A stretch of 64,000 nucleotides of DNA. Origin: Candidatus Aenigmatarchaeota archaeon. Its GTDB lineage: Archaea > Aenigmatarchaeota > Aenigmatarchaeia > QMZP01 > QMZT01. The notes under the pieces are model-generated. The model had not been told where the DNA came from. It ran no database searches and worked only from the letters and a program-made list of their open reading frames with translations. Shown here piece after piece: positions 11,733-62,918 of the stretch. The position numbers were made by a program, and so were the translations under genes. Location: positions 132,183-196,182 of the forward strand of contig JAFGCI010000001.1 of the NCBI GenBank assembly GCA_016932735.1, read 5' to 3'. Positions within the stretch are counted from its first letter, which is position 1; every line of letters begins with the position of its first letter.

Positions 11733-11741
11733 TGTGAGATT

Positions 11742-41292: not shown

Positions 41293-41321
41293 AATATCTC
41301 ATAATAGGGTAGCTGATCCAT

Positions 41322-42547: not shown

Positions 42548-42628
42548 ACTTTGGAAAGACAGCTAAGCGGTCATGTAAGAAATTCAAGTGAAAAAAGCGA
42601 GAATCGTTATAGATTACAGGGCGAATAT

Positions 42629-43300: not shown

Positions 43301-43312
43301 GATAAAGGAAAG

Positions 43313-43705: not shown

Positions 43706-43715
43706 GGTAGATAAG

Positions 43716-44099: not shown

Positions 44100-44100
44100 G

Positions 44101-45104: not shown

Positions 45105-45167
45105 TTAACCGCATGCATTGTATAAACCATGATGCATGCTATAAAATAAAAGGTGACCGAATAAAAA

Positions 45168-45751: not shown

Positions 45752-45779
45752 GATAGCGGAAAAATATAATGGTGAAAAA

Positions 45780-46522: not shown

Positions 46523-46532
46523 TGGTGAAATA

Positions 46533-47108
46533 ATGAAAAAATCATGGTCAAATGAATGGGTTTCGAGCGTGCAGCCAAGGAAGCAGAGGAAGTATGTACA
46601 TAATGCACCGTTGCACGTAAAGCATAGATTGCTTTCGGTTCATCTTGCGCCCGTACTCAGGGAAAGATACGGAACGAGATCAGTAACTGTCAGAAAGGGA
46701 GACAAAGTTAAGGTTATGAGAGGATCCTCAAAGGGATTCAGCGGACCGGTGGAAAGGATATCCCTGAAAAAGATGGAAGTGTTCATAGAAGGTCTTAAGG
46801 CCAAGAAAGTCGACGGAACGGAAGTCCTCAAATCCTTAAAACCATCAAATATCATGATCACAGAACTTAATACTGACGACAAAACAAGACAGTCAAAACT
46901 GTTAGGAAAAGAAAAGACACCAGCAAAACCAAAAGGGGGAGCAGTGAAAAAAGCAGGTTCTGAAGCTAAAAAAGCAGAATCTTCTAAAGAAGAGAAACCT
47001 AAAGAATCCAAAGCTCCTGTTAAAAAGGAAGCGGCTGAAAAGAAGGTTGCATCTCCTAAAAAAAGCGTTGCCTCCAAGAAACCGGCTGAGACCAAGGTGA
47101 AGAAATGA
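46533..47108 (+). CDS. rpl24: 50S ribosomal protein L24 (uL24) with a long Lys/Ala/Glu-rich C-terminal extension.
   Basis: A KOW motif (VRKGDKVKVMRGSSKGFSGPVERI) followed by a basic C-terminus of about 90 aa (KPKGGAVKKAGSEAKKAESSKEEKPKESKAPVKKEAAEKK...). Confidence 0.85.
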   Translation: MKKSWSNEWVSSVQPRKQRKYVHNAPLHVKHRLLSVHLAPVLRERYGTRSVTVRKGDKVKVMRGSSKGFSGPVERISLKKMEVFIEGLKAKKVDGTEVLKSLKPSNIMITELNTDDKTRQSKLLGKEKTPAKPKGGAVKKAGSEAKKAESSKEEKPKESKAPVKKEAAEKKVASPKKSVASKKPAETKVKK

Positions 47109-47791
47109 GCGGATACCTGAAGAGATATGTAATGCCGGCTTTCTGGCCGGTGAACAGGAAAGGGAATAAATGGGTCTCAAGACCCAGAACGGGCCCGCAT
47201 AAGATAGAACAGTGCATATCATTGCAGATACTTGTCAGGGACTCTTTCAGCCTGACTGACAACGTACCGGAAACGAAGAAGCTGATAAAATCCGGAGCCA
47301 TATTGGTGGACAAAAGAAAAAGGACAGATATAAAATATCCTGTCGGTTTCATGGATGTTATTGAGATACCATCAGTCAAGAAATACTACAGAGTCATGCT
47401 TAGCAGCAAGGGACTTCATCCGGAAGAGATAAAGGAGACGGACAGCTCAAGAAAGCTGTGTATTGTCAAGGGGAAGAAGGCTATCAAAGGAGGCAAATTC
47501 CAGTTAAGTCTTCATGACGGAAGAAATGTTATTGTCCTTCCGAAGAATGATTATAAGGTTAATGATTCAGTCATCATATCACTGCCTGAACAGAAGATAG
47601 CAAAACACTTCAAGTTTGAAAAAGGAGCAGCATCATTCATAACTGCCGGAAAAAATATCGGCATCACTGGAACGATAGAGGAAATAAAGGAAAGGAAGAC
47701 GATGCTGGAAAAAGCAATGGTCACGATAAAAACGAAGGACAATAAAAGCCTTTTGGTTCCCAAAAAATATGTAATGGTCGGTGAAGTATGA
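47105..47791 (+). CDS. rps4e: 30S ribosomal protein S4e (eS4).
   Basis: The N-terminus MSGYLKRYVMPAFWPVNRKGNKWVSRPRTGPHK is the characteristic S4e start. Confidence 0.9.
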   Translation: MSGYLKRYVMPAFWPVNRKGNKWVSRPRTGPHKIEQCISLQILVRDSFSLTDNVPETKKLIKSGAILVDKRKRTDIKYPVGFMDVIEIPSVKKYYRVMLSSKGLHPEEIKETDSSRKLCIVKGKKAIKGGKFQLSLHDGRNVIVLPKNDYKVNDSVIISLPEQKIAKHFKFEKGAASFITAGKNIGITGTIEEIKERKTMLEKAMVTIKTKDNKSLLVPKKYVMVGEV

Positions 47792-48312
47792 ATACAATGA
47801 GAGAAATCCGGATAGAGAAGGTAACAATTAATGTGGGAACAAAAGAAGATGCAGATGTCCTTAACAGGGCAGTGTTTATGATAAAAAAGATAACCGGAAA
47901 GGACGGCGTCATTACAACGACACATAAAAGGACGACATTCGGAGGCGCAAAGAACAGAAAAATTGGTTGCAAGATAACTCTTCGCGGAGACGAGGCTAAG
48001 GAATTCCTGCTCAATGCACTGAAGGCCGTTGATAACAGGATAAAACCGACACAGTTCGACCGTACAGGAAACTTTGCTTTCGGTGTGAAGGAGTACATAA
48101 ACATGCCGGGGATGAAATATGATCCCGACATAGGGATATTGGGATTTGATGTTATTGTCACACTTAAGAGGCCCGGATTCAGGGTGAAAAAAAGGAAGCT
48201 CAAAGCGGCAAAGGTAGGAAAGAAACACCTGATTCCGCCCGAGGAATCAATTGAATGGGCCAAGAAGGAGCTTAATATTAATGTTACTGAAGAAGTCGAG
48301 GAAAAATGGTGA
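47788..48312 (+). CDS. rpl5: 50S ribosomal protein L5 (uL5).
   Basis: [11 protein letters not shown]...[32 protein letters not shown] matches L5. Confidence 0.9.
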
Positions 48313-48316
48313 AATA

Positions 48317-48538
48317 ATGACGTTCAAGAACATGAAAAAGCAGGTCGAGAAGAAACCTGAAAAACTTGCAAGAGTCATGAAGTTCAATGCCTCTAAACAG
48401 AGGAATAGCGGACGCGGCATTCATCCATGCCGAATATGCGGAAAGACTGAAGGCGTTATCTCAAAATACGGGCTTGGATACTGCAGACAATGCTTCAGGG
48501 AGATAGCCCCAAAACTGGGATTCAAGAAATATGATTAA
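48317..48538 (+). CDS. rps14: 30S ribosomal protein S14 (uS14, zinc-binding type).
   Basis: An in-frame ATG at 48317 gives ...[42 protein letters not shown], the C4 zinc S14 signature. The upstream extension in the ORF track overlaps L5. Confidence 0.85.
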
Positions 48539-48548
48539 GGTGTATTTG

Positions 48549-48935
48549 ATGAAACATGATTCACTGTCGGATATGTTCACAATATTAATGAACACAGAAA
48601 CTGTAGGTAAAATTTCATGCATAGTTCCGTCCTCAAAAGTCATAAAGGAGATTCTGAAGACGATGCAGAAGAAGGGATACATAGGCAACTTTGAGTTAAT
48701 AGATGACGGAAAGGGCGGCAAGTTTAGAGTCGAGATGGTAGGAAAAATAAACAAATGCGGTGTCATAAAACCCCGCCATGCGGTAGGTCTCAGAAGTTTC
48801 ATTAACTGGGAGAAAAGATATCTGCCTGCAATAGGTATGGGAGAGCTTTTCGTGAGTACACCCGGAGGCGTCATGAGCCACAGGGATGCGACAGAGCAAA
48901 AAAGCGGAGGAGTTCTCTTAGGTTATATTTATTGA
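48549..48935 (+). CDS. rps8: 30S ribosomal protein S8 (uS8).
   Basis: MKHDSLSDMFTILMNTE... and the C-terminal FVSTPGGVMSHRDATEQKSGGVLLGYIY are S8 signatures. An alternative upstream start lies at 48531. Confidence 0.85.
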   Translation: MKHDSLSDMFTILMNTETVGKISCIVPSSKVIKEILKTMQKKGYIGNFELIDDGKGGKFRVEMVGKINKCGVIKPRHAVGLRSFINWEKRYLPAIGMGELFVSTPGGVMSHRDATEQKSGGVLLGYIY

Positions 48936-49210
48936 ACGTGATGTTTATGTCAACAAAAGAAGAAATAAAGAAAGCGCTTGAAGATGAGAAGGCTATAATG
49001 GGAACCAGACAGGTAACAAAAAATGCTAAAGCTTCATCGCTTTCAAAAATCATTTATGCAGACAATGCGCCCGAACTTACAACGGAAAGGATGAAATTCT
49101 ATTCCAAGTTATCCGGCGTTGAAGTCGTAATATTCAAAGGCAATTCGGTTGAATTGGGAAGACTCTGCGGAAAGCCTTTTGGTATAACGGTAATGGGAAT
49201 AAAAAAATAG
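48932..49210 (+). CDS. rpl30e: 50S ribosomal protein L30e (eL30).
   Basis: IMGTRQVTKNAKASSLSKIIYADNAPE...YSKLSGVEVVIFKGNSVELGRLCGKPFGITVMGI matches L30e/L7Ae-fold proteins and its position at the head of the nusA-S12-S7-EF2 cluster. Confidence 0.75.
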   Translation: MNVMFMSTKEEIKKALEDEKAIMGTRQVTKNAKASSLSKIIYADNAPELTTERMKFYSKLSGVEVVIFKGNSVELGRLCGKPFGITVMGIKK

Positions 49211-49222
49211 AGGACATAACAA

Positions 49223-49624
49223 ATGGTTAAAATAGGCAACGAGGAAATACAAACACTGGCCGTATTTGAAAAAGCAACGGGAACATATGCCCGTGACTGT
49301 ATAAGAGACAACGGCTCTATATATTTCATTGTTGAAAACGGCAAGATGGGCACTGCAATAGGAAAAGGCGGTGTGAACGTTAAAAGAGTCAGGGAAATAC
49401 TCAATAAGGACATAAAAATATTCGAATATTCGTCCGACCCTCTCGAGATGACAAAAAAAATGATTCCTGCATCAAAAGGAGTTGAGCAGAACGGGCAGGA
49501 GATTGTCGTGACGCTGGATGCAAAGGACCGCTCGGCGGTAATAGGAAAAAACGGTAAGAATATCAAGATTATAAAAGAGATACTTGACAGACACTTCAAA
49601 ATCAAGAATCTCAGGTTAAAGTGA
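49223..49624 (+). CDS. nusA: Archaeal NusA-like protein (tandem KH domains).
   Basis: 133 aa with two KH motifs (MGTAIGKGGVNVKRVREIL and SAVIGKNGKNIKIIKEIL). It sits between L30e and S12, the conserved position. Confidence 0.8.
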   Translation: MVKIGNEEIQTLAVFEKATGTYARDCIRDNGSIYFIVENGKMGTAIGKGGVNVKRVREILNKDIKIFEYSSDPLEMTKKMIPASKGVEQNGQEIVVTLDAKDRSAVIGKNGKNIKIIKEILDRHFKIKNLRLK

Positions 49625-49684
49625 CATCGACAAGCTGTTTACAGGCGTTGTCAATGTATTGCACCGAAAGGGTGCACATGGAAC

Positions 49685-50125
49685 ATGATAAATGGTGAAA
49701 ATATGCCAGGAACATTCGCTGCAAGGACACTGAAGAAGAAGAGGAAGAGATTCAAGTGGAAATCGACAGTCTATAAAAGGAAATTCCTTAAACTGTGGAA
49801 AAAGGATCCGCTTGCCGGAGCACCTTTAGGCAGGGGAATAGTCCTGAAGAAGAAAGGAATAGAGCAGAAACAGCCTCACTCTGGTATAATCAAAGCCGTA
49901 AGGATACAGCTGATAAAGAACGGCATCCAGTGCACTGCAATGGTCCCGAGGACCGGTGCAATAAAATTCATTGACGAGCACGATGAAGTCACAGTTGACG
50001 GACTTGGAGGTTCGCAGGGCGGTGCAATCGGTTCGATGCACGGCGTAAAATACAAAGTAGTCGCAGTCAATGGAGCCTCTCTTGAGATGATAAGAAGAGG
50101 AAAGAAAGAGAAACCTAAGGGATAA
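49685..50125 (+). CDS. rps12: 30S ribosomal protein S12 (uS12).
   Basis: PLAGAPLGRGIVLKKKGIEQKQPHSGIIKAVRIQLIKNGIQCTAMVPRTGAIKFIDEHDEVTVDGLGG matches S12. The probable true start is MPGTFAARTL at 49703. Confidence 0.9.
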   Translation: MINGENMPGTFAARTLKKKRKRFKWKSTVYKRKFLKLWKKDPLAGAPLGRGIVLKKKGIEQKQPHSGIIKAVRIQLIKNGIQCTAMVPRTGAIKFIDEHDEVTVDGLGGSQGGAIGSMHGVKYKVVAVNGASLEMIRRGKKEKPKG

Positions 50126-50127
50126 AG

Positions 50128-50730
50128 ATGACTAGCAATTTATTGATGATGAATAAGTGGGATATGTCCGAGATCAAAGTCGACGACAGAGGTTTAAAGG
50201 CATACCTCAACATCAAACCTGTGATAGTCCCGAAATCGAGCGGCAGAAATTCCACGCTTTCCCTGAGAAGACAGCATGTCAGCGTGGTTGAGAGATTTAT
50301 CAACAAGCTCATGGTCACAGGCCACAAAGGCAAGAAACACGAGATAACCTCGGATCATAATATAGGAAGATACTTATCTGTTTACAACGCAGTAAAAGAG
50401 GCATTCGAAATAATTGAAAGCAAGATAAAGAAGAACCCGGTTCAGGTTCTGGTAACAGCTATAGAGAATTCGGCCATGTACGAAGAAGTTGCTGCTTACA
50501 GGATGGGCGGAACAATAGCAAGGAAAGCAGTTATAGTCTCCCCCAGAAGAAGAATAGATATGGCATTGAGATTCATGTGCCAGGGAATATTCAGGCAGTC
50601 TTTCGGAAAAAAGACAAAGCTTGCCAATGTTATAGCCAATGAACTGATAGCCATTTACAACAACGATTCAAACACCATGGCTATAAGGGAAAGACAGAGG
50701 CTTGAAAGGGAAGCTGACGGCGCCAGATAA
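50128..50730 (+). CDS. rps7: 30S ribosomal protein S7 (uS7).
   Basis: 200 aa. ...LMVTGHKGKKH...AVKEAFEIIE...AIENSAMYEEVAAYRMGGTIARKAV matches S7. Confidence 0.9.
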   Translation: MTSNLLMMNKWDMSEIKVDDRGLKAYLNIKPVIVPKSSGRNSTLSLRRQHVSVVERFINKLMVTGHKGKKHEITSDHNIGRYLSVYNAVKEAFEIIESKIKKNPVQVLVTAIENSAMYEEVAAYRMGGTIARKAVIVSPRRRIDMALRFMCQGIFRQSFGKKTKLANVIANELIAIYNNDSNTMAIRERQRLEREADGAR

Positions 50731-50769
50731 GCCCTTTTCATATTTTCAATTGACTTAGGTGATTTTTAG

Positions 50770-52983
50770 ATGGCAAAAAAAGGTGATTTGACACAGATAA
50801 TCAAGGTGTTAATGAGAAAACACGAGAACATAAGGAACATAGGCATTGTTGCCCATATCGACCACGGCAAGACCACGCTTTCTGACAACCTTCTTGCAGG
50901 CGCAGGAATGATTTCAGAAGAGCTTTCAGGAAAGCAGTGCGCAATGGATTTCGACGCGCAGGAACAGGAAAGAGGAATCACAATCTTTGCTGCAAACGTT
51001 TCAATGGTCCACGAGTACAAAGGAAACGATTTTCTTATCAATCTTATAGATACGCCGGGTCACGTCGATTTTGGCGGCGATGTAACACGTGCAATGAGGG
51101 CTGTTGACGGGGCTGTCATTCTGACAGACGCAGTAGAAGGCTGTATGCCCCAAACAGAAACCGTTGTCCGTCAGGCTCTGAAAGAAAGGGTCAGACCGAT
51201 TCTTTTTATCAACAAGGTTGATCGTTACATTAAGGAACTCAAGCTTACGCCGGAGCAGATGCAGCAGCAGTTCATGAAAATTATCGCTGAAGTAAATGCT
51301 CTTATAAGCAAATACGCTGAGCCTGAATACAAGACCAAATGGATGGTCAATGTAAATGACGGGTCTGTTGCATTCGGTTCTGCTTACAGGAACTGGGCAA
51401 TATCTGTTCCTTACATGAAGGAGAAGGGAATAAGCTTCAAGGACATAATAGAGATGACAAATGCCGGACCGGAATCTGAAAAAGAGCTTGCAAAGAAAGC
51501 TCCTCTTCACGAGATACTTCTTGATGCAGTCATCAAGCATCTTCCAAATCCTGATCAGGCACAGAAATACAGGGTCCCAAAGATATGGCCGGGAGACAAC
51601 GATTCGGAAGCGGGAAAGGACATGATAATGTGCAATCCTGATGGAAAGCTTGGTGCAGTCGTCACAAAACTTTATCCGGACCCGCATGCAGGTTATGTTG
51701 CAACGGTCAGGATTTTTTCAGGAAAAGTTAAGGTCGGAACAGAGGTCTATCTTGTCGGAACCCAGAAAAAGGTGAAAATCCAGCAGGTATCACTTTACAA
51801 AGGCCAGCAGAGAGTTCCAATGGAAGAAGTCAACGCGGGAAACATCGTAGGACTTGTCGGCCTGAAGGATGCAAGCAGCGGTGAGACGCTTTGCGACCCC
51901 GACGACATCATCGTTGGGTTTGAAAGCATTAAGCATATATTCGAGCCTGTTGTCACCAAGGCAATAGAGCCAAAGAAGCCACAGCAGCTTGCAAAACTCA
52001 TCGAATTTTTAAGGAGGGTAAGCAAGGAAGACCCGACACTTCAGATTGTAATCAACGAAGATACCGGAGAATATCTTGTATCCGGCCTTGGCGAGCTTCA
52101 GATAGACGCAAAGATTGAGAGACCGCTGAAGGAAGCGGAGATTGATGTATCCGTTTCACCGCCGATAGTAATTTTCAAGGAGTCTGTAAGCGGTTCGACC
52201 AAAGAGCCCATTGAAGGAAAATCACCCAACAAGCACAACAGGTTCTACTTCCTTGTAGAGCCTCTGGAAAAAGCGGTCTTTGATGCAATGGTCGCAGGAG
52301 AGCTCCCATCCGACTCTGAAATGAAAAAGAAGGATGTCGATTTCCAGGAAAAGCTTGTGAAGCTCGGCTTCGATCGGGACGAATCAAAGAAAGTCAAGCT
52401 CATCCATAACAGGAATATGCTCATTGATGCGACCTCAGGTGTCCAGGCAATCCTTGAAGTCATGGAAATGATTAAGGAATCATTTAAGGAAGCAATGGAC
52501 AACGGCCCTCTTGCAAGGGAGCCTTGCAGCGGAATAAAGGTCAAACTGGTCGATGCAAAGCTTCATGAAGATGCAATTCACAGAGGTCCGGCACAGGTAA
52601 TTCCTGCGGTTAGGTCGTCAATAAGATTGGGCATGGTAAATGCAAAGGCATACATTCTTGAGCCAAAGCAGATGATAAGAATAGACGTTCCGATTGACCA
52701 TGTCAGCGGCGCTTTGAAGGAAGTATCGAACAGAAGAGGCCAGGTAATCGACATGACTGACGAGCAGGGAGCAACTGTCATAAAGGCAAAGCTTCCTGTC
52801 GCGGAGATGTTCGGATTCAACTCTGCACTCAAGTCATCTACAGGAGGAATGGGATTCTTCTGGCTGATAGATGTCATATATGAGGCGCTTCCAAAAGAGC
52901 TTGAACTGAAATACGTTACACAAATCAAGCAGAGGAAGGGAATAACAGACCTCAAGAATGACGAGAGCGAAGAAGAGGCTTAA
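50770..52983 (+). CDS. fusA: Elongation factor 2 (aEF-2).
   Basis: 737 aa. G1 is IRNIGIVAHIDHGKTTLSD, G3 is DTPGHVDFGGDV, and G4 is NKVD. The conserved C-terminal domains are present (diphthamide-region histidine context ...GPAQVIPA...). Confidence 0.92.
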   Translation: MAKKGDLTQIIKVLMRKHENIRNIGIVAHIDHGKTTLSDNLLAGAGMISEELSGKQCAMDFDAQEQERGITIFAANVSMVHEYKGNDFLINLIDTPGHVDFGGDVTRAMRAVDGAVILTDAVEGCMPQTETVVRQALKERVRPILFINKVDRYIKELKLTPEQMQQQFMKIIAEVNALISKYAEPEYKTKWMVNVNDGSVAFGSAYRNWAISVPYMKEKGISFKDIIEMTNAGPESEKELAKKAPLHEILLDAVIKHLPNPDQAQKYRVPKIWPGDNDSEAGKDMIMCNPDGKLGAVVTKLYPDPHAGYVATVRIFSGKVKVGTEVYLVGTQKKVKIQQVSLYKGQQRVPMEEVNAGNIVGLVGLKDASSGETLCDPDDIIVGFESIKHIFEPVVTKAIEPKKPQQLAKLIEFLRRVSKEDPTLQIVINEDTGEYLVSGLGELQIDAKIERPLKEAEIDVSVSPPIVIFKESVSGSTKEPIEGKSPNKHNRFYFLVEPLEKAVFDAMVAGELPSDSEMKKKDVDFQEKLVKLGFDRDESKKVKLIHNRNMLIDATSGVQAILEVMEMIKESFKEAMDNGPLAREPCSGIKVKLVDAKLHEDAIHRGPAQVIPAVRSSIRLGMVNAKAYILEPKQMIRIDVPIDHVSGALKEVSNRRGQVIDMTDEQGATVIKAKLPVAEMFGFNSALKSSTGGMGFFWLIDVIYEALPKELELKYVTQIKQRKGITDLKNDESEEEA

Positions 52984-55927: not shown

Positions 55928-56461
55928 ATGAATGTAAAGATTATCGTGCTCATAATCCTGTTGGTTTTTGTGACAGCAGTGGGAGCATCTGCAACAATAA
56001 AATTAGAATCTGAAAAGCAGATAGGAGGAGAAAAGGACGAGCATGGCTGCCTTGTCCCGGCAGGTTATTCTTGGGACGAAGATGTTGGTGCATGTATAAG
56101 GGGCTGGGAACTTGATGAGGACCAGAAAAGAGCAGCTAAAGCAGCAATTGAATATCTGGATTCGGAAAAAATATCGACGATAACTGAAGTAGCAGTTTTA
56201 AGATGTCCCGGCTGCTTCGATGTAAAGCTGGAACAAGGTGAAGATAGAGATCTTCTAAGCGTCAAAATAACTGATTGGAGTGCTTCAGGAAAGACCGTCC
56301 TGCGTCATACATGTAAACCAGAAGAAAGGAGCGCAATTATATGCACAATGGAATACAATCCTGTATGCGGCTTTAAGGAAGACGGAACTTCATCAACATA
56401 CGGAAATGGATGTGGTGCATGTTCAGACGGAGTCGTTTACTGGGAATCGGGAGAATGTTAG
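55928..56461 (+). CDS. Secreted Cys-rich protein with a C-terminal Kazal-like domain.
   Basis: Signal-peptide-like N-terminus MNVKIIVLIILLVFVTAVGASA. The C-terminal C-x9-C-x7-C(PVCG)-x10-Y-x3-C-x2-C-x11-C (...CTMEYNPVCGFKEDGTSSTYGNGCGACSDG...C) follows the six-Cys Kazal spacing with the PVCG and TY.N.C hallmarks. Confidence 0.55.
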   Translation: MNVKIIVLIILLVFVTAVGASATIKLESEKQIGGEKDEHGCLVPAGYSWDEDVGACIRGWELDEDQKRAAKAAIEYLDSEKISTITEVAVLRCPGCFDVKLEQGEDRDLLSVKITDWSASGKTVLRHTCKPEERSAIICTMEYNPVCGFKEDGTSSTYGNGCGACSDGVVYWESGEC

Positions 56462-57087: not shown

Positions 57088-57147
57088 CAGAAAAGCATAT
57101 CGCTTCTATCTTATCCAAATATTTATATAAAACGCGGAATCAAGGTT

Positions 57148-58722
57148 ATGTATAGCCTTCAAATACTGGCAGGTAGAGCTCAGATGGCAGAAAACGACAG
57201 GAAACATAAGAAATACACATCAAAAGAAGAAGATATTGATTCTCTAGATAAAGAACAGGATAATGATGAATCAGTTAGAAAGGATTATCCGGTAAAAGAA
57301 GAAAGCGAATATGATAAAAGTATTCTTATAGAGCCTATTGAAGATAAAAAAGAGACAGACAAAAAAACGGCCAAAAAGAAAACTAACGGCTCTCCTATCC
57401 GTTCCGTCCTTAAAAAATCCATGATAGGCATGGAAGTCGAGATGTTCACTCTTGATGAGAATGGGAACATGGCCAATCTTGCCGACGTCCTGATAAAAGA
57501 GGTCAAAAAGAAATATCCCTTGGTCGGAACTGCGAAGGAAGCCGGCAGAAGCACGATAGAAATCAAGAGCTTCCCAAACGAGGCCATCAGCGATACCATG
57601 GAACACCTTCTTGAGGAAATGGAGAGCGTCCTCATATGCGCTGAAAAAGAGAATATAAGGCTTTTCCCGCTGGGAACATTTCCCGGCTCATTTACACCTG
57701 ATATGAGACAAGACACTCCTTATCTGCTCAAAGAGCAGATTTTTGGGAAAAACAGGTTCCTTATAGCAGGACGCTGTGTAGGCCTCCACATACATTATAC
57801 ACTTCCGTGGGGGGTATTTGACAGCAAGCAGAAAATCCTCAAGAGGCTTCATCGCTCAAAGAACCAGCAGACAATGGTTGGCAGCTACAATCTTCTTATT
57901 GCAATGGATCCGGCTCTGACAACATTCATGCAGTCCTCTCCCTTTTATCAGGGCAAATATATAGGCAAGGACTCGCGTGTTATTGTCTATAGGGGGGGTT
58001 CGGATTTTGATTATCCGCAGGGCCTTTATGCAAACTATTATGCATTCGGTGCTTTGCAGCCATACAAGCAGACGAACACGGATATGATTGACGTTATTTT
58101 CAGGAAATATGACGAATGGAAGAATATAATCCAGAAGATAGATATGAACCTGAGGGTCTTCTCAAAACACGGTTCGATACTCGACACTACGTGGAATCCT
58201 GTAAAGGTCAATGCCGTCGGGACACTTGAGCAGAGAGGGATGGATACAAACCATCCCATGTATATGACGGCAGCGGGAGCCCTGATAAAATATATCCTGC
58301 GATATGTAGAGGATGAAAACATTAATGTCATTCCTTCGGATATCGGTGTTGCAGAGCCATTCAAGCTGGAAGGTAACGTAATGTACATACCTCCACATAC
58401 CCATGTGAGAAAGAATCTCCAGAGGAACGCCGCTTATGACGGTCTTGACAACAGGGAGGTTTACGATTACTGCAAAATACTGCTTAAGCTTGCATCCCAA
58501 TGCATTCCCAAAGATAAGGAAGTCCTTCTGGACCCTTTCAGGAAGATAATAGATGAGAAGAAAACAGTATCCGACGAAATCATTGAATTAGCCAAAAAGA
58601 AGGGAGCGGATCTCAAAGAAACGCTCCCGAAAAGCATCGTGACTGAGATAGCATTGGAGCATTCCGGACGCCTGTTCAAGGAGATTGTGCTTACAAAGAA
58701 GATGCTCCATGACCTGAAGTGA
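57148..58722 (+). CDS. GCS2-family (YbdK-like) carboxylate-amine ligase with an N-terminal low-complexity extension of about 100 aa.
   Basis: IGMEVEMFTLDENG aligns to YbdK LGIELEMQVV. CVGLHIHYTLPW aligns to GQHVHVG. VGTLEQRGMDTNHP aligns to GTVEVRVMDTP. The first 100 aa are D/E/K-rich and disordered-looking; the catalytic domain may start at the internal Met (MIGMEVEM). Confidence 0.75.
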   Translation: MYSLQILAGRAQMAENDRKHKKYTSKEEDIDSLDKEQDNDESVRKDYPVKEESEYDKSILIEPIEDKKETDKKTAKKKTNGSPIRSVLKKSMIGMEVEMFTLDENGNMANLADVLIKEVKKKYPLVGTAKEAGRSTIEIKSFPNEAISDTMEHLLEEMESVLICAEKENIRLFPLGTFPGSFTPDMRQDTPYLLKEQIFGKNRFLIAGRCVGLHIHYTLPWGVFDSKQKILKRLHRSKNQQTMVGSYNLLIAMDPALTTFMQSSPFYQGKYIGKDSRVIVYRGGSDFDYPQGLYANYYAFGALQPYKQTNTDMIDVIFRKYDEWKNIIQKIDMNLRVFSKHGSILDTTWNPVKVNAVGTLEQRGMDTNHPMYMTAAGALIKYILRYVEDENINVIPSDIGVAEPFKLEGNVMYIPPHTHVRKNLQRNAAYDGLDNREVYDYCKILLKLASQCIPKDKEVLLDPFRKIIDEKKTVSDEIIELAKKKGADLKETLPKSIVTEIALEHSGRLFKEIVLTKKMLHDLK

Positions 58723-58723
58723 T

Positions 58724-59956
58724 ATGATGGTTCTCGGCATCGGTGAAAAATACAATAATACCCTTCTCAAAAATCCGGACCTTTCTGAAAAGACGTTCAG
58801 CTATATCAGAAAAGAATATGAAAGAAACAAAATTATGATGGGTAACAGGTTACTTCCATTTTTTCTGACACCGAATTTTATTTCTGAATCCCGAGACAAT
58901 CTAATCATGCAAAGCTCTGAAAGGATGGCTGGGATACTTGAAAAAATAGGAAAAAATATTCTGAGGAAAAGCCATGAATCCAGATTGAATGTGATAAACA
59001 GGATGGATTTCTTCTTCCATGAAGGAAAAATAAAATTCATAGAATTTAATGCGGACAGCCCCTCCGGTGCCGGAAGGCTTGATATAATCAATAAAATTTT
59101 TTCAGAAATCCCGATAATTTCCGGAATAAAAGAAAATAAAGAGATGAGAGAATCCCTTCTGGAAGCTCTTTTCAACTCTTACAAAGAATGGGGAGGAAAA
59201 AAAGAAAAACCGACCATAGCGCTAATAGATTGGAAGGGTGTCAAGACAATATCTGACCAGAAACTTATTGCACAATATTTCAATGGGAGGGGATTCAGAA
59301 CAATCCTTGCGGACCCCAGAGAACTGAAATATAAAAAAGGGAAAATGTTCTCAGGAGAAACGGAGATAGACATTCTCTACAAGCGTGTTATAATAAAAGA
59401 GCTTCTCGATAAGAAAGAAGAATGCAGAGACCTTTTTTCCGCGATTTCAGATAATTCAATTTTCATTTCCAACCCCCTTGAATCGGGAATTCTGGGCGAG
59501 AAGAAACTCATTTCAAGGATGGCCTCCGGAGAATTTGACAAAATTCTGACGGAAGACGAAAAAAGTTTCCTAAGAGAGTATCTGCCTTGGTCAAAAGAGG
59601 TTAACGTTAATCTCAAAGAGAAAATCATTTCGGAAAAAAACAAGCTGGTTCTTAAACCGGATGAAGGCTATGGCGGAGAAGGAGTCAAAATCGGAAAGTT
59701 CCTTTCAGAAGAAGAATGGAAGAAAGCAGTTGATATATCTATTTCAGATAGCGGTTGGACTGTGCAGGAGTACATAGATGTACCGGCAATAAAAATCTTT
59801 GATAAGGGAAAAATCACAAAGAAATTCATGAGTATGTCATCGTTTGTTTTCGGCGGAAAATATGCGGGATGCATGACACGTGTCTCCGATGATCCTGTCG
59901 TCAATACCAGCAAAGGTGGAGGAATAATACCGACGTTCGTTTTAAAGAAGGGTTGA
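58724..59956 (+). CDS. Circularly permuted ATP-grasp superfamily ligase.
   Basis: The ATP-grasp core motifs occur near the C-terminus: LVLKPDEGYGGEGVKIG, WTVQEYIDV, and R..N.s.GG (MTRVSDDPVVNTSKGGGIIP). No Mg-binding E-x-N segment follows, which implies it is relocated N-terminally (circular permutation). The gene starts 2 nt after the GCS2 stop. Confidence 0.65.
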   Translation: MMVLGIGEKYNNTLLKNPDLSEKTFSYIRKEYERNKIMMGNRLLPFFLTPNFISESRDNLIMQSSERMAGILEKIGKNILRKSHESRLNVINRMDFFFHEGKIKFIEFNADSPSGAGRLDIINKIFSEIPIISGIKENKEMRESLLEALFNSYKEWGGKKEKPTIALIDWKGVKTISDQKLIAQYFNGRGFRTILADPRELKYKKGKMFSGETEIDILYKRVIIKELLDKKEECRDLFSAISDNSIFISNPLESGILGEKKLISRMASGEFDKILTEDEKSFLREYLPWSKEVNVNLKEKIISEKNKLVLKPDEGYGGEGVKIGKFLSEEEWKKAVDISISDSGWTVQEYIDVPAIKIFDKGKITKKFMSMSSFVFGGKYAGCMTRVSDDPVVNTSKGGGIIPTFVLKKG

Positions 59957-59966
59957 CAATATTTCA

Positions 59967-60701
59967 ATGAGTGGTGCAATGATAATCGATTTTCATACGC
60001 ACATAGGACACAGCCACGACGGCTCCGAACAGACAATACCAGAACTTGAATCGAATATGAAAAAGCTGGGGATTGACAAATCTGTTGTTTTCAGCATTGA
60101 CGATAAAGACATGTCGAGGGAAGAACTTAGCTTCAAAATAATGGAAGACGTGAGGGGCGATGACTCATTGATACCTTTCTTCAGGTTTGACCCGAAAAAA
60201 ATGAAAGCTGAGAATCTGGAGAGAATCCTGAAAGATTTCCACGGAGTCAAGCTTCATTCGAGAGCGGAGGATTTTAATCCGCTGGATAAAAAGTTCTTTC
60301 CTCTTTACGAAGCCATTGAGAAATCGGGAAAGCCTCTTCTGTTCCATACAAAGAAATACCATCTGAAGCAGACAGACCCCGCGGAAATTGTAAGGATTGC
60401 GGAAGAATTCCCTAAGTTAAAGCTGGTTCTTGCCCATTTTGCAGGCTCGCAGCCACTCGTTTTTAACTATGTTGAAAAGAACGGGCTTGGCAATGTATAT
60501 TTCGACACTTCGGTGAATTGCACGCAGTTCTACATAAGAAGCATAGGCGAAAAACTGGGCTTTGACAGGATACTGTTCGGCTCCGACTGCCCCTACTCGG
60601 ACCAGGAAGTGGAGCTTCTGAAAATAAAGAAACTGGAAATCGGCGACGATGACAAAAACAAAATTCTGGGGCTCAATGCAAAGAAATTACTTAATTTGTA
60701 G
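59967..60701 (+). CDS. Amidohydrolase-2-type metal-dependent hydrolase (TIM barrel).
   Basis: The N-terminal MIIDFHTHIGH (HxH metal site) and the later HFAG...D pattern over 244 aa fit the Amidohydro_2 family. Confidence 0.7.
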   Translation: MSGAMIIDFHTHIGHSHDGSEQTIPELESNMKKLGIDKSVVFSIDDKDMSREELSFKIMEDVRGDDSLIPFFRFDPKKMKAENLERILKDFHGVKLHSRAEDFNPLDKKFFPLYEAIEKSGKPLLFHTKKYHLKQTDPAEIVRIAEEFPKLKLVLAHFAGSQPLVFNYVEKNGLGNVYFDTSVNCTQFYIRSIGEKLGFDRILFGSDCPYSDQEVELLKIKKLEIGDDDKNKILGLNAKKLLNL

Positions 60702-60754
60702 AACATCTATTCGTTACCTATTAATAGAACCAAAGCCAATTATTAACTAAGCCC

Positions 60755-61858
60755 GTGCTATGCGTTTTACTTTGGGTTTGTTTTTATGGAGTGATATTTC
60801 TGGAGCCGCTGAAAAAAATCGGGACGTGCAGGTTGACGCGCGGAAAACTGCGGCATGGGCACATTCCTGTAAAGGGAGGATATCAGATACCCGTTTCCAT
60901 AATGAAAGGAAAAAATGAGGGAAAGATGTGCTTCATTTCCGGCGGGATACATGGCGATGAGATAAACGGAATAAACCTCGTCCAGATGATAATGAAGTCT
61001 CTTGACCCCGAAAAAATCAACGGCACCATAATATTCATCCCCATTGTAAACATAGAGGGTTTTCATGAGAAAAGCCACAAGTTTACCAGGGATTCAAAAG
61101 ACATAAACAGGTGCTTCGCCAAAAGATGCAGGAGCACTTCATATTTTATTGCAAAGACTTTCATGAAAGAGATAGTCGAGAGATGTGATTTCGGGATAGA
61201 CTGCCACGACTGCGGCGAGAAGAACGTGCTTCTGCCGCATTCAAGAGTTCATGACAGCCCTTACATTGATACGGGCGAGGGAGATACAATATCCCTCGGC
61301 AGGCTTTTCGGCACCAGGATAATACTCAAGAGGGAAGGCGAAAGGGGGATGCTTGCCGTTGAAGCGGCACGGAAGTCGAAGAAACAGATTTTAACAGTTG
61401 AAATAGGGGGTGGCCTCGTCTTCTGGAACGAGTTCCTTAATGATGCCCTGACGGGAATACAAAATATATTGATACACCACGGCTTTATGCAGGGGAAAAT
61501 AAAGCTTCCCCGTGAGCAATATATACTTGAGGATCTGGACAGGTTCCGTCACAGAGCGCGTACAGAGGGCTTGCTCTATAAGAAAGTCAATCTTGGTGAC
61601 AGGGTGCATAAAGGCGATGTCATCGCAGTTATCCATAATCCTATAACCAGGAGAAAGAAAGAAATAATATCAAAGCACTGCGGCTTTGTCTTCTCGCTGA
61701 AAATGCAGGACAAGATAAACAAAGGCGAGTCAATAGCTTCAATACTCCAGAGCAACGATTGCACGCGCCATGGAACAAAGAAACAGAGAGGCCTTACCCT
61801 CATAAGAAACTATCCAAATTTATGGGATTTTGCTCCAAAGAAAGAAGAAGTCAGTTAG
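60755..61858 (+). CDS. AstE/AspA-family (succinylglutamate desuccinylase / aspartoacylase-like, M14-related) zinc deacylase; GTG start in the ORF track.
   Basis: YQIPVSIMKGKNEGKMCFISGGIHGDEINGINLV is the family signature (G.HG.E Zn site). A downstream His/Glu lies in GIDCHDCGEKN. The start is uncertain: GTG at 60755 or an internal ATG at 60902. Confidence 0.7.
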   Translation: MLCVLLWVCFYGVIFLEPLKKIGTCRLTRGKLRHGHIPVKGGYQIPVSIMKGKNEGKMCFISGGIHGDEINGINLVQMIMKSLDPEKINGTIIFIPIVNIEGFHEKSHKFTRDSKDINRCFAKRCRSTSYFIAKTFMKEIVERCDFGIDCHDCGEKNVLLPHSRVHDSPYIDTGEGDTISLGRLFGTRIILKREGERGMLAVEAARKSKKQILTVEIGGGLVFWNEFLNDALTGIQNILIHHGFMQGKIKLPREQYILEDLDRFRHRARTEGLLYKKVNLGDRVHKGDVIAVIHNPITRRKKEIISKHCGFVFSLKMQDKINKGESIASILQSNDCTRHGTKKQRGLTLIRNYPNLWDFAPKKEEVS

Positions 61859-62918
61859 CCTTTTTCAGGCCTTCGATTTTCATCTTTAGCTCAATTATCT
61901 TTCTCTCATAATCGTCTGCGAGTTTCTTGAAATTTTCTTCTGTTATCTCATTTTTATAGAATTTCTTTTCGGCCATGTCCCTTGCCATGCGAAGCTTTTC
62001 AATATCGAATTGCAGGTTTTTTATTGTAGCTTCTGTGTCTTTTTCATCGGGCTTAATATTTGATTTGAGATTGCTTATTTCCTTGATAAGCTTTTGTTTG
62101 TTCTTTATGCTCTTCAATTCCAGAGCCTCGAGAGCTTCTTCAATATCGGTCTGCGTCTCCTCCCTTTCGAGCTGTATTTCGGTTTCCCTTCTTATCCTTT
62201 CATTCTCCATCTCGGAAATGGCAGCCTCCCTGTCAAGTTCCCTTGAAGACACTTCCTCCGCCTTCTTGAGCTTCCGGGATATGATGGCATCTGCATCAGC
62301 TTTCTGCATCTCGCTGCCAACCTTTTCTATTTCCTGCTGGTTCTCATAAGAAAACGCGGGATTGAAGACCAGCGAAAGGAGTGTAATACCTATACTCCTT
62401 AAAGAATCTCCCATTTTTCGGAAGGCCTCGCTTTCAATTGTTTTCTGTACATCCGGAATGTCCGACAGGCCGATAAGAGAGCGTTTCGATACGACGGGAC
62501 CTATAACCTTTGATACCAGTTCCTCCTTTATATCTGACCATAAATCTTCCAGAAGAACGGCATTTCTGGTCCGCATGAAATGACCCATGAATGAATTGAA
62601 GCCTGTTATCTGAAGCTTTATCACGACGGTGGCGTGTATCATGTTCTTATCATTCGTCCATAGATCGACGACTGGCCTCTGCATTCTTTTTTCTGATTTG
62701 TCGAACAAAATCACATTTACCTGCCCCTTTCCCAGCAATCCGCCTATTTTGCAGTTCCTGTTTTCGGCTTCCTCTATTATGTTCCCGTCTTTTTCAATGA
62801 AAGCGTGTTCATGCTCCCCTATGTGTATTTTCTTTAAAAAGAAGCCTCTGACCTCATGATTGCTGAGCCTCTGGGCAATAACAGAATCGGAGCGTACCCA
62901 TTTCATTGTTTTCCCCAT
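61851..62918 (-). CDS. SPFH/Band-7-like domain protein with a long C-terminal coiled coil.
   Basis: 355 aa. The middle region (IESEAFRKMGDSLRSIGITLLSLVFN) resembles the SPFH core. The C-terminal 150 aa are a heptad-rich coiled coil of E/K/R residues. No N-terminal TM. It converges on the deacylase gene with an 8 nt overlap. Confidence 0.5.
   Translation of the reverse strand: MGKTMKWVRSDSVIAQRLSNHEVRGFFLKKIHIGEHEHAFIEKDGNIIEEAENRNCKIGGLLGKGQVNVILFDKSEKRMQRPVVDLWTNDKNMIHATVVIKLQITGFNSFMGHFMRTRNAVLLEDLWSDIKEELVSKVIGPVVSKRSLIGLSDIPDVQKTIESEAFRKMGDSLRSIGITLLSLVFNPAFSYENQQEIEKVGSEMQKADADAIISRKLKKAEEVSSRELDREAAISEMENERIRRETEIQLEREETQTDIEEALEALELKSIKNKQKLIKEISNLKSNIKPDEKDTEATIKNLQFDIEKLRMARDMAEKKFYKNEITEENFKKLADDYERKIIELKMKIEGLKKAN

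What the first reader, a model, noticed from the sequence alone, without database searches (positions are those of the whole stretch)
57148..61858. Four-gene amidoligase/hydrolase cluster: GCS2 (YbdK-type) ligase, circularly permuted ATP-grasp, amidohydrolase, AstE/AspA deacylase
Four tightly packed co-directional genes (gaps of 2 to 53 nt) combine two different ATP-dependent carboxylate-amine/peptide ligase folds with two metal hydrolases. One ligase is a GCS2/YbdK-like enzyme, with motifs IGMEVEMFTLD, GLHIHY and GTLEQRGMD. The other is an ATP-grasp whose C-terminal Mg-binding segment is missing after the GG loop, i.e. circularly permuted. The hydrolases are an amidohydrolase-2 and an M14-like AstE/AspA deacylase. 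Comparative genomics associates combinations of this kind with synthesis of small peptide or amide metabolites, or of gamma-glutamyl-type peptide tags, together with their trimming or recycling. No precursor-peptide ORF is visible inside the cluster, so a small-molecule product or a substrate encoded elsewhere is more likely. I know of no characterised system of this kind in a reduced DPANN-like archaeon, so it could define a novel conjugate or cofactor pathway.
Basis: partly seen in the sequence, partly recalled or inferred. Interest (0 to 1): 0.72.

Follow-up and report, generated by a model that had tools for sequence, protein, structure and literature searches.

The report
Two-ligase amide-synthesis cluster in Aenigmarchaeota
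A DPANN archaeon carries a conserved three-gene set (a glutamate-cysteine-ligase-like enzyme, a glutathione-synthetase-like permuted ATP-grasp and a metal amidohydrolase) that most likely builds and recycles an unknown small amide or peptide metabolite, while the fourth gene (a deacylase) is only a chance or recent neighbour.

Summary
Four co-directional ORFs (57148-58722, 58724-59956, 59967-60701, 60755-61858) lie 1, 10 and 53 nt apart and match GCS2, GSP_synth/CP_ATPgrasp, Amidohydro_2 and AstE_AspA. The quoted motifs are present and invariant in homologues.

The four-gene unit is only partly supported. GCS2-like + ATP-grasp + Amidohydro_2 recurs in three other Aenigmarchaeota genomes, once with a non-permuted ATP-grasp. 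The AstE gene is unlinked in the nearest relative, which carries its 74% orthologue on another contig. It is absent from all 79 related loci.

The GCS2-like protein belongs to a small, sharply delimited subfamily spread over DPANN archaea and CPR bacteria. Its partners vary: FGase, Amidohydro_2 plus an unknown ~138-aa protein, ATP-grasps of three types, and MscS channels.

Best reading: a glutathione/glutathionylspermidine-like two-step ATP-dependent amide synthesis with a hydrolytic partner. The product is unknown (thiol or osmolyte). This is a new variant of a known kind, of moderate interest.

The parts
57122..57129 (+). TATA-box-like element (TTTATATA) 19 nt upstream of the first ATG. Candidate single archaeal promoter of the cluster.
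   Evidence: It is the only + strand copy within several kb of the cluster. The window holds 10 copies against 2.9 expected. Promoter function is inferred, not shown.
57148..58722 (+). GCS2/YbdK-like carboxylate-amine ligase (524 aa; NCBI aa from M13). It has a lineage-specific, acidic/lysine-rich N-terminal extension of about 85 aa.
58724..59956 (+). Circularly permuted ATP-grasp acid-amine ligase of the GspS / eukaryotic glutathione synthetase / YgiC clade (410 aa).
59967..60701 (+). Amidohydro_2 TIM-barrel metal hydrolase (244 aa), the conserved third partner.
   Evidence: Pfam 97.6 bits. Nearest solved structure 3cjp. D8, H10, H12, K95, H97, H127, H157 and D207 are invariant in 14 cluster-linked homologues. 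Found next to the GCS2-like gene in 13 of 79 loci.
60755..61858 (+). AstE/AspA-family (M14-like) Zn deacylase (about 360 aa). Adjacent, but not a conserved member of the module. Its 3' end overlaps the convergent Band_7-like gene (61851-62918) by 8 nt.
   Evidence: Pfam 87 bits. NCBIfam DoeB model 100 bits, far below its cut-off of 402.7. PDB 3na6 and 6twl. G64, G67 and E69 of the GGIHGDE motif, and H151 and E216, are invariant; H66 and D68 are at least 90% conserved. The orthologue is unlinked in the sister genome. Absent from 79 loci.

Best explanation
The conserved unit is three genes, probably one transcript. It most likely makes and turns over a small amide or peptide metabolite by two successive ATP-dependent ligations.

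1. The GCS2/YbdK-like enzyme phosphorylates a carboxylate, most plausibly the gamma-carboxyl of glutamate, to an acyl-phosphate and couples it to an amine, as gamma-glutamylcysteine ligases do.
2. The permuted ATP-grasp, of the same clade as eukaryotic glutathione synthetase, glutathionylspermidine synthetase and the E-64 ligase Cp1B, activates a carboxylate of that product (or a second acid). It adds a further amine, either an amino acid or a polyamine.
3. The Amidohydro_2 metal hydrolase is the hydrolytic partner. It either recycles or degrades the product or supplies a precursor.

The AstE/AspA deacylase is a neighbour acquired by rearrangement. It may act on an N-acyl amino acid unrelated to the module, or may have been recruited only in this lineage.

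Shown: gene order, family and fold membership, intact catalytic motifs, conservation of the triad, non-conservation of AstE.

Inferred: the chemistry (by homology), the order of the steps, co-transcription, and the nature of the product. A low-molecular-weight thiol and an osmolyte are both possible.
For: - Families and motifs.
- Triad conserved in Aenigmarchaeota despite rearrangement:
  - L004/L019: same order, ATP-grasp 68% identical.
  - L002/L020: ATP-grasp and Amidohydro_2 on the strand opposite GCS2, ATP-grasp 40% identical.
  - L083: GCS2, a non-permuted ATP-grasp, then Amidohydro_2.
- GCS2 directly followed by the permuted ATP-grasp in a locus whose record title names an uncultured Candidatus Saccharibacteria bacterium (L091, 11-nt overlap).
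- GCS2 together with a PLP enzyme, a GNAT and two ATP-grasps in L060.
- An ATP-grasp of some type lies within 6 kb in 11 of 79 loci.
- The gaps of 1 and 10 nt leave no room for a peptide ORF.
- One TATA-like box lies upstream of gene 1.
- The cluster sits in core chromosome, about 4 kb after EF-2, and is syntenic with the relative.
Against: - No substrate or product is known. NCBIfam equivalog models for GCL, YbdK and GspS are missed by a wide margin (34 vs 427 bits; 27 vs 882), so substrates may differ from Glu, Cys or GSH.
- Most loci with the GCS2-like gene (68 of 79) show no ATP-grasp within 6 kb.
- Most of the listed homologues of the ATP-grasp (about 30% identity), of which three carry an Omnitrophota name, were found without any sign of a GCS2 partner. 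In the one such homologue whose surroundings were read (P0016, three places), no GCS2 gene lies within 8 kb and DUF2203 follows it. The two ligases are therefore not obligately coupled and might act in parallel.
- The role of the amidohydrolase is undefined.
- Neighbours elsewhere hint at different physiologies. MscS, a Na+/H+ exchanger, inositol monophosphatase and TreT suggest osmoadaptation. Disulfide reductase and SUF genes suggest thiol chemistry.
Confidence: 0.55

Rival explanations
1. Protein or peptide tagging system. The GCS2-like enzyme (the same fold as the Pup ligase PafA) and/or the ATP-grasp (as in RimK or LysX) attach glutamate or a small protein to a protein substrate or carrier, and the hydrolases remove it.
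For: - In other loci the partner ATP-grasp is RimK-like.
- A conserved small helical protein of unknown function (~138 aa) accompanies Amidohydro_2 in 12 loci and could be a carrier or substrate.
Against: - There is no Pup-like or LysW-like ORF in the cluster.
- The ~138-aa protein is absent from the window. Its C-terminus is a conserved hydrophobic helix (LAQNICILRILK), not an acidic or Gly-Gly tail.
Confidence: 0.12
2. The module makes an osmolyte (compatible solute) of the N-acyl, gamma-glutamyl or dipeptide-amide type. The hydrolase degrades it on osmotic downshift. This reading concerns physiological role and is compatible with the two-ligase chemistry.
For: - MscS channel genes lie within 6 kb of the GCS2-like gene in 11 of 79 loci, several interleaved with Amidohydro_2 and the ~138-aa gene (L035, L039, L042, L058).
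- A Na+/H+ exchanger (7 loci), inositol monophosphatase (7 loci), TreT-like glycosyltransferases and AI-2E transporters also recur.
- The one Omnitrophota-named ATP-grasp homologue whose surroundings were read (P0016, three places) lies near inositol-1-phosphate synthase and CDP-alcohol transferase genes.
- The AstE protein is most similar to the ectoine-catabolic deacetylase DoeB.
Against: - None of these osmo-related genes is in this window.
- The loci are phylogenetically related, so the counts are not independent.
- The associations were not tested against a genomic background.
- The DoeB similarity is far below the equivalog cut-off (100 vs 403 bits).
Confidence: 0.2
3. The module makes a glutathione-like low-molecular-weight thiol (gamma-Glu-Cys-X). 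The GCS2-like enzyme acts as GshA and the permuted ATP-grasp acts as a eukaryote-type GshB or GspS.
For: - The fold pairing is that of the two enzymes of eukaryotic glutathione synthesis.
- Profile hits to glutathione and homoglutathione synthetases have E-values of 3e-5 and 2e-4.
- A CxxxxC flavoprotein disulfide reductase lies beside the GCS2-like gene in 4 loci (blastp cluster; 3 Pfam-confirmed).
- SUF, NifU and cysteine desulfurase genes are adjacent in a Parcubacteria locus.
- Haloarchaeal GCS2-type GshA makes gamma-Glu-Cys (PMC7278568).
Against: - Identity to GCL and GS structures is only 11-17%.
- The equivalog thresholds are not met.
- There is no reductase, glutaredoxin or transferase gene in the window.
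- Cys- and Gly-binding residues could not be checked with these tools.
- The conserved amidohydrolase has no counterpart in glutathione synthesis.
Confidence: 0.18
4. The four genes are merely adjacent housekeeping genes with independent functions and do not form a pathway.
For: - The AstE linkage is indeed not conserved.
- Many GCS2-like loci have none of the partners within 6 kb.
Against: - The triad survives inversion and gene-order change.
- The ATP-grasp has been replaced by a different type in some genomes without breaking the association.
- The association recurs in loci titled Aenigmatarchaeota, Woesearchaeota, Nanoarchaeota/Nanoarchaeia, Candidatus Saccharibacteria and (for RimK-like ATP-grasps) Parcubacteria/Paceibacterota, plus several mislabelled or unplaced MAGs.
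- Genes overlap or lie 1-12 nt apart.
Confidence: 0.1

Closest known systems
Glutathione biosynthesis (gamma-glutamylcysteine ligase GshA plus eukaryote-type glutathione synthetase)
   Same: - A GS-fold carboxylate-amine ligase is paired with a circularly permuted ATP-grasp ligase.
- Both act through acyl-phosphate intermediates.
   Different: - Identity is 11-17%, and the curated equivalog cut-offs are missed by more than 10-fold.
- A conserved Amidohydro_2 partner, and elsewhere a ~138-aa protein, have no counterpart in glutathione synthesis.
- The host is a DPANN archaeon. The 2020 review reports no archaeal GshB.
E. coli glutathionylspermidine synthetase/amidase GspSA and its paralogues YgiC and YjfC
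   Same: - Same Pfam family (GSP_synth).
- Same permuted topology, with R-x-D...E-x-N aligned to the GspS Mg site.
   Different: - No N-terminal CHAP amidase domain; the protein is only 410 aa.
- 27 bits against a cut-off of 882 for the GspSA equivalog.
- The hydrolytic function, if any, is supplied by a separate TIM-barrel metal hydrolase rather than a cysteine amidase.
Predicted amidoligase gene neighbourhoods of Iyer, Abhiman, Burroughs and Aravind 2009 (Mol Biosyst 5:1636): GCS2/COOH-NH2 ligases and circularly permuted ATP-grasps with peptidases
   Same: The general logic is the same: GS-fold and ATP-grasp amidoligases combined with hydrolases, predicted to make peptides, metabolites or peptide tags. 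This comparison rests on my own recollection, because the paper was not available in the library.
   Different: - The bacterial CP_ATPgrasp operons I recall contain alpha-E and transglutaminase-like genes, which are absent here.
- This triad, and the DPANN/CPR-specific GCS2 subfamily, are to my knowledge not described there.
E-64 biosynthesis (ATP-grasp Cp1B plus an amide-bond synthetase)
   Same: - Two successive ATP-dependent amide ligations build a small tripartite molecule without an NRPS.
   Different: - The pathway is fungal.
- Its second ligase belongs to a different family.
- It starts from an oxygenase-made epoxysuccinate warhead, and no oxygenase is present here.
AstE/AspA deacylases, in particular DoeB (N-acetyl-2,4-diaminobutyrate deacetylase)
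   Same: - Same catalytic domain with the Zn ligands conserved.
- Best NCBIfam and PDB matches.
   Different: - The score is a quarter of the DoeB cut-off.
- DPANN orthologues sit in varied contexts: next to DapD, an aminotransferase and LysA in a Woesearchaeon, and next to purine genes elsewhere.
- The gene is not linked to the ligase module in relatives.

Membership tests
GCS2 / YbdK carboxylate-amine ligase (PF04107) | Pfam model matched above the gathering score | tested here: met
   27.1 bits against a cut-off of 21, but only residues 94-236, i.e. the N-terminal half of the model.
GCS2 / YbdK carboxylate-amine ligase (PF04107) | Glutamine-synthetase-like fold closest to YbdK and GCL | tested here: met
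GCS2 / YbdK carboxylate-amine ligase (PF04107) | Metal and phosphate-binding motifs (E-x-E strand, H-x-H, E-x-R) | tested here: met
   E96, E98, H214, H216, E361 and R363 are invariant in 28 and 59 homologues. Their assignment to metal binding is by analogy.
GCS2 / YbdK carboxylate-amine ligase (PF04107) | Orthology to a characterised glutamate-cysteine ligase or YbdK (NCBIfam equivalog cut-off) | tested here: not met
   Best score 34.3 bits against a cut-off of 427; TIGR02050 27.6 against 176. The protein belongs to a separate subfamily with only 160 representatives at E<=1e-30 out of 1.84 billion.
GCS2 / YbdK carboxylate-amine ligase (PF04107) | Glutamate plus cysteine ligase activity | not testable with these tools
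   Needs an enzyme assay or gshA complementation.
Circularly permuted ATP-grasp (GSP_synth / CP_ATPgrasp / eukaryotic GS clade) | Pfam models matched above the gathering score | tested here: met
   GSP_synth 41.5 (cut-off 29.3), CP_ATPgrasp_2 38.3 (32), CP_ATPgrasp_1 29.1 (23.1).
Circularly permuted ATP-grasp (GSP_synth / CP_ATPgrasp / eukaryotic GS clade) | Mg-binding R-x-D...E-x-N segment located N-terminal to the ATP-binding lysines, i.e. permuted order | tested here: met
   R93, D95, E107 and N109 precede K260 and K311, and the chain ends after G398-G400. The segment aligns to the GspS sequence 'RMDFCMDERGLKVYEYNADS'.
Circularly permuted ATP-grasp (GSP_synth / CP_ATPgrasp / eukaryotic GS clade) | Fold closer to permuted than to classical ATP-grasps | tested here: met
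Bifunctional glutathionylspermidine synthetase/amidase (GspSA) | N-terminal CHAP amidase domain and a score above the equivalog cut-off | tested here: not met
   The protein is 410 aa with no amidase domain. It scores 27.1 bits against a cut-off of 882.
Bacterial CP_ATPgrasp operons (with alpha-E and transglutaminase-like genes; feature recalled from memory) | Adjacent alpha-E domain and transglutaminase-like genes | tested here: not met
   No such Pfam families among the window neighbours or in related Aenigmarchaeota loci.
Glutathione biosynthesis pathway (GshA + GshB) | Second ligase orthologous to glutathione synthetase, with gamma-Glu-Cys and Gly binding residues | tested here: inconclusive
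   Profile hits to 5oes and 3kaj have E-values of 3e-5 and 2e-4, and structural identity is 11-16%. Substrate-binding residues could not be mapped.
Glutathione biosynthesis pathway (GshA + GshB) | Genomic association with thiol-redox genes | tested here: inconclusive
   None in the window. A disulfide reductase is adjacent in 4 of 79 loci (3 Pfam-confirmed), and SUF genes in one CPR locus.
Pup ligase / depupylase (PafA / Dop) | Best fold match to PafA/Dop, with a Pup-like gene and proteasome genes nearby | tested here: not met
Amidohydro_2 (PF04909) metal-dependent TIM-barrel hydrolase | Pfam match plus the H-x-H ... H ... D metal ligands | tested here: met
   97.6 bits. D8, H10, H12, H97, H127, H157 and D207 are invariant, as is K95.
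AstE/AspA deacylase (PF24827) | Pfam match plus the H-x-x-E ... H zinc ligands and a catalytic Glu | tested here: met
   87 bits. E69, H151 and E216 are invariant and H66 is at least 90% conserved among 11 homologues.
AstE/AspA deacylase as a member of this gene cluster | Conserved linkage to the ligase genes in related genomes | tested here: not met
   Absent from 79 loci. The sister MAG has the orthologue on another contig. Other contexts are unrelated.

The most novel reading that the evidence does not exclude
The GCS2-like protein defines a small, sharply delimited ligase subfamily shared at 40-60% identity between DPANN archaea and CPR/Patescibacteria. It anchors a modular, still unrecognised pathway for a signature small molecule of these ultrasmall episymbionts: a glutathione-like thiol or a gamma-glutamyl/N-acyl osmolyte. 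The ATP-grasp partners are interchangeable (three types), as are the hydrolase partners (FGase, Amidohydro_2 plus a ~138-aa protein).
Probability: 0.3. Interest if true: 0.75.

Novelty: new variant of a known kind. Interest (0 to 1): 0.5.

Why it matters
DPANN archaea and CPR bacteria have very reduced biosynthetic repertoires, so any ligase kept at 40-60% identity across both radiations probably makes something they cannot obtain from their hosts.

If the module makes a low-molecular-weight thiol, it would be the first two-step glutathione-type pathway in archaea. If it makes an osmolyte, it would be a new compatible-solute route.

Either outcome would give a function to several hundred 'hypothetical' or 'glutamate-cysteine ligase family' genes, and to an orphan branch of the permuted ATP-grasp clade whose E. 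coli members YgiC and YjfC are labelled only as putative acid-amine ligases in their PDB entries.

The work also corrects the cluster boundary. Experiments should use three genes, not four.

Tried and rejected
- **Four-gene unit.** Rejected. The AstE linkage is not conserved.
- **Anti-phage defence system.** No PADLOC hit for any of the four proteins or for the ~138-aa partner.
- **Pup-like tagging.** The fold match is weaker than to GCL or YbdK, and there is no tag gene.
- **Domain fusions.** Checked the longer members of the GCS2-like family (561-690 aa) for fusions that might reveal a partner. No informative extra domain was found.
- **Missing partners in the window.** Looked for the ~138-aa partner, FGase, RimK-like, MscS and inositol monophosphatase genes elsewhere in the 64-kb window by tblastn. 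None found.
- **Iyer et al. 2009.** Tried to read the paper to compare its neighbourhoods. It is not held, so that comparison rests on memory.
- **Literature searches.** The search for 'circularly permuted ATP-grasp'/'GCS2' returned only unrelated GCS2 hits. The DPANN plus glutamate-cysteine ligase search returned only a general thiol review.
- **Promoter and terminator scan.** The sigma-70 and intrinsic-terminator scan is not meaningful for an archaeon and showed nothing above the shuffled expectation.
- **RNA genes.** Rfam and tRNA scans of the window were empty.
- **Substrate-binding residues.** Mapping Glu-, Cys- and Gly-binding residues onto the models was not possible, because coordinates cannot be superposed with these tools.

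Full report
**1. Observation**

The window carries four + strand ORFs at 57148-58722 (524 aa), 58724-59956 (410 aa), 59967-60701 (244 aa) and 60755-61858 (367 aa, GTG start). They are separated by 1, 10 and 53 nt.

Pfam assigns them as follows:
- Protein 1: GCS2, 27.1 bits, N-terminal half only.
- Protein 2: GSP_synth, CP_ATPgrasp_2 and CP_ATPgrasp_1 (41.5, 38.3 and 29.1 bits).
- Protein 3: Amidohydro_2, 97.6 bits.
- Protein 4: AstE_AspA_cat, 87 bits.

NCBIfam finds only weak similarity to curated equivalogs. The best glutamate-cysteine ligase model scores 34 bits against a cut-off of 427. GspSA scores 27 against 882. DoeB scores 100 against 403.

Their key residues are invariant across 28 and 59 homologues.

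The identical ATP-grasp protein is recorded by NCBI as from a Candidatus Aenigmarchaeota MAG, so the DPANN guess is correct.

A consensus TATA-like box (TTTATATA) sits 19 nt upstream of the first ATG. It is the only + strand copy near the cluster. This fits one promoter for the set, though it does not prove it.

The AstE ORF has no ATG before residue 50. Orthologues of 360-361 aa align from about residue 13-17, so the long form is real and one automatic 310-aa call is too short.

**2. What the proteins are**

*GCS2-like protein.*
- An AlphaFold2 model of residues 85-524 with 59 homologues has mean pLDDT 91.5.
- It is therefore a true member of the GCS2/GCL branch of the glutamine-synthetase-fold amidoligases, but not an orthologue of any characterised enzyme.

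*ATP-grasp.*
- The model has pLDDT 91.9.
- In the family alignment the conserved R93-x-D95 ... E107-x-N109 segment lies near the N-terminus and aligns with the corresponding GspS segment. The ATP-binding lysines (K260, K311) and the Q348-E349 hinge follow, and the chain ends after G398-G400.

*Amidohydro_2.* It keeps D8, H10, H12, K95, H97, H127, H157 and D207 in all 14 cluster-linked homologues.

*AstE-like protein.* It keeps the HGDE motif (E69 invariant, H66 at least 90% conserved), H151 and E216.

All four proteins therefore look catalytically competent.

**3. Is it one unit?**

Related genomes say three genes, not four.

- *Nearest relative (GCA_964554465.1).* The region is syntenic from ribosomal protein S7 and EF-2 onwards. 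It contains GCS2 (78% identical), the ATP-grasp (68%) and Amidohydro_2 (76%). These are followed directly by the convergent Band_7-like gene that in the window lies after AstE. The 74% AstE orthologue of that same MAG lies on another contig, next to an AsnC-like regulator.
- *A more distant Aenigmatarchaeote.* It keeps ATP-grasp (40% identical), Amidohydro_2 and an unknown 146-aa gene, with GCS2 convergent.
- *A third Aenigmatarchaeote (L083).* It has GCS2, a non-permuted 309-aa ATP-grasp, Amidohydro_2 and a 141-aa gene.
- *Other AstE homologues.* They sit in unrelated contexts: beside DapD, an aminotransferase and LysA in a Woesearchaeon, and beside PurP and PurH elsewhere.
- *Wider survey.* None of 79 related loci has an AstE gene within 6 kb.

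**4. The wider family**

The GCS2-like protein is much better conserved than its neighbours. It is 48-60% identical to proteins from Woesearchaeota, Nanoarchaeota, Aenigmarchaeota and Parcubacteria.

A scan of one genome per species found 134 encoding loci. By their record titles these are almost all DPANN (Woese-, Nano-, Aenigmat-, Iain-archaeota, Diapherotrites) or CPR (Magasanik-, Doudna-, Gracili-, Peri-, Saccharibacteria, Paceibacterota). Some titles that read 'uncultured Methanosarcinales' or 'Gammaproteobacteria' look like mislabelled MAGs.

In a library of 1.84 billion 50%-identity representatives, only 160 proteins match the family profile at E<=1e-30 and 543 at E<=1e-3. The subfamily is small and sharply separated from ordinary GCS2 proteins.

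Among the 79 loci retained:

| Neighbour within 6 kb | Loci | Notes |
|---|---|---|
| 368-aa FGase-like amidohydrolase | 18 | 16 on the same strand; median spacing -3 nt, i.e. typically abutting or overlapping the 5' end of GCS2 |
| Amidohydro_2 | 13 | |
| Unknown helical ~138-aa protein | 12 | Conserved C-terminal LAQNICILRILK, no Pfam match; usually follows Amidohydro_2 |
| Any ATP-grasp | 11 | 4 permuted, 3 of a 308-314-aa type, 5 RimK-like (L060 has two types) |
| MscS channels | 11 | Several interleaved with the module |
| Na+/H+ exchanger | 7 | |
| Inositol monophosphatase | 7 | |
| CxxxxC flavoprotein disulfide reductase | 4 | 3 confirmed by Pfam |

TreT-like glycosyltransferases also recur.

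One locus (L060) strings together GCS2, a PLP enzyme, a GNAT and the permuted ATP-grasp, with a second ATP-grasp convergent. One locus titled Candidatus Saccharibacteria (L091) has GCS2 overlapping the permuted ATP-grasp by 11 nt.

Most of the listed homologues of the permuted ATP-grasp are only about 30% identical, and three of them carry an Omnitrophota name. In the one whose surroundings were read (P0016, three places), the gene follows citrate synthase, is followed by DUF2203, and has no GCS2 gene within 8 kb.

**5. Mechanism**

Both ligase folds work through acyl-phosphate intermediates. This is established for GCL, glutamine synthetase and the ATP-grasp enzymes. Among the close structural relatives of both proteins, those with a known function (gamma-glutamylcysteine ligases; glutathione, homoglutathione, glutathionylspermidine and trypanothione synthetases; Cp1B) join small molecules.

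The best-supported reading (confidence 0.55) has three steps:
1. Protein 1 couples a carboxylate, plausibly the gamma-carboxyl of glutamate, to an amine.
2. Protein 2 extends the product with a second amine, either an amino acid or a polyamine.
3. The Amidohydro_2 enzyme hydrolyses the product or a precursor.

The pairing mirrors eukaryotic glutathione synthesis (GCL plus a permuted glutathione synthetase) and glutathionylspermidine synthesis.

The order of the steps, the substrates and the co-transcription are inferred. Replacement of the permuted ATP-grasp by other ATP-grasp types in equivalent positions argues for a functional need for 'a second ligase'. The many loci without one, and the lone ATP-grasp in the Omnitrophota-named homologue that was read, argue that the coupling is facultative.

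Physiological role remains open. Channel, antiporter, inositol and trehalose neighbours point to osmoadaptation. The disulfide reductase and SUF neighbours, and the glutathione-like enzyme pair, point to a thiol. None of these indicator genes is in this window, and the associations were not corrected for shared ancestry.

A protein-tagging role (Pup-like or RimK-like) is less likely:
- The fold matches favour small-molecule ligases.
- No tag or carrier ORF fits in the cluster.
- The ~138-aa partner seen elsewhere lacks an acidic or Gly-Gly C-terminus.

**6. Comparison with what is known, and novelty**

The proteins are members of known superfamilies (see the membership table), but they fail the curated tests for every characterised enzyme.

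My limited literature searches found no description of this cluster or of the DPANN/CPR subfamily. A 2020 review notes only that GshA-family hits occur in DPANN and that no archaeal GshB is apparent.

I class the finding as a new variant of a known kind: a two-ligase small-molecule amide pathway of the glutathione/glutathionylspermidine type, with a distinctive amidohydrolase partner and an unusual host range.

Interest is moderate (0.5). The cluster is real and uncharacterised, and its anchor gene is a conspicuous shared marker of two radiations of ultrasmall organisms. On the other hand the chemistry is conventional, the product is unknown, and one quarter of the proposed cluster does not belong.

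Noticed in passing
L010, L016-L018, L023-L025 and others (FGase gene upstream of the GCS2-like gene, typically abutting or overlapping its 5' end): In 18 of 79 DPANN/CPR loci the GCS2-like gene is preceded by a 363-372 aa FGase-like (N-formylglutamate amidohydrolase family) gene (16 on the same strand; median spacing -3 nt). This ligase-hydrolase pair is more common than the one in the window.
   Followed up: partly
L020 7320-7769 (-), L032 5558-5968, L035 4169-4585, L083 9004-9429 and 8 more loci: An unknown all-helical protein of about 138 aa, with conserved Y-[LI]-R-[ILV]-[YH] and C-terminal LAQNICILRILK motifs and no Pfam or PADLOC match, follows the cluster-linked Amidohydro_2 gene in 12 loci. 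It is absent from this window.
   Followed up: partly
L035 1308-3224, L058 4098-5961, L042 2151-3224, L039 4443-5507, L031 9548-10807: MscS-type mechanosensitive channel genes (11 loci, some in tandem pairs) and a Na+/H+ exchanger (7 loci) are interleaved with or adjacent to the GCS2 / Amidohydro_2 / ~138-aa genes. This hints at a link to osmotic or ion homeostasis. It was not tested against a genomic background.
   Followed up: partly
L100 6001-10475: A Woesearchaeota homologue (43% identical) of the window's AstE-like deacylase lies convergent to a LysA, aminotransferase and tetrahydrodipicolinate N-acyltransferase (DapD-like) operon. In DPANN this deacylase family may stand in for DapE (N-acyl-diaminopimelate deacylase).
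   Followed up: no
L007-L009 about 2000-12000: One homologue of the permuted ATP-grasp with an Omnitrophota name (P0016, read at three places) ends an operon of isocitrate/isopropylmalate dehydrogenase, malate dehydrogenase, aconitase and citrate synthase. It is followed by DUF2203 and flanked by inositol-1-phosphate synthase, a CDP-alcohol transferase and inositol monophosphatase. There it may ligate a TCA-derived acid.
   Followed up: no
window 57148-57400: The GCS2-like protein of this lineage (and its 4-5 closest relatives) carries an N-terminal extension of about 85 aa, rich in Lys, Glu and Asp and of low complexity. It is missing from the listed Woesearchaeota and most other homologues; a few, including the Parcubacteria protein P0117, carry shorter unrelated N-terminal extensions.
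   Followed up: no
window 61851-62918 (-): A 355-aa coiled-coil, weakly Band_7-like gene overlaps the 3' end of the AstE gene by 8 nt. In the nearest relative the same gene abuts Amidohydro_2 directly, which marks the AstE gene as the inserted or relocated element.
   Followed up: yes
window 55928-56461 (+): A 177-aa protein with a hydrophobic N-terminal stretch, a Cys-rich body and a weak Kazal-type inhibitor domain match (23 bits).
   Followed up: no
window 714-11168 (+) and 15740-19780 (-): Giant ORFs of 3484 aa and 1346 aa. A further ORF of about 1993 aa starts near 63240 and runs off the window (seen on the matching Logan contig, with a faint Big_1 match). These may be the large surface proteins common in DPANN genomes, but they were not analysed.
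   Followed up: no
window 41300-52983: A dense run of small + strand ORFs with strong GC and AT skew ends in EF-2 (50770-52983). It looks like the ribosomal-protein/EF-2 region, so the cluster lies in core chromosome rather than on a mobile island. No tRNA or Rfam match occurs anywhere in the 64 kb.
   Followed up: partly
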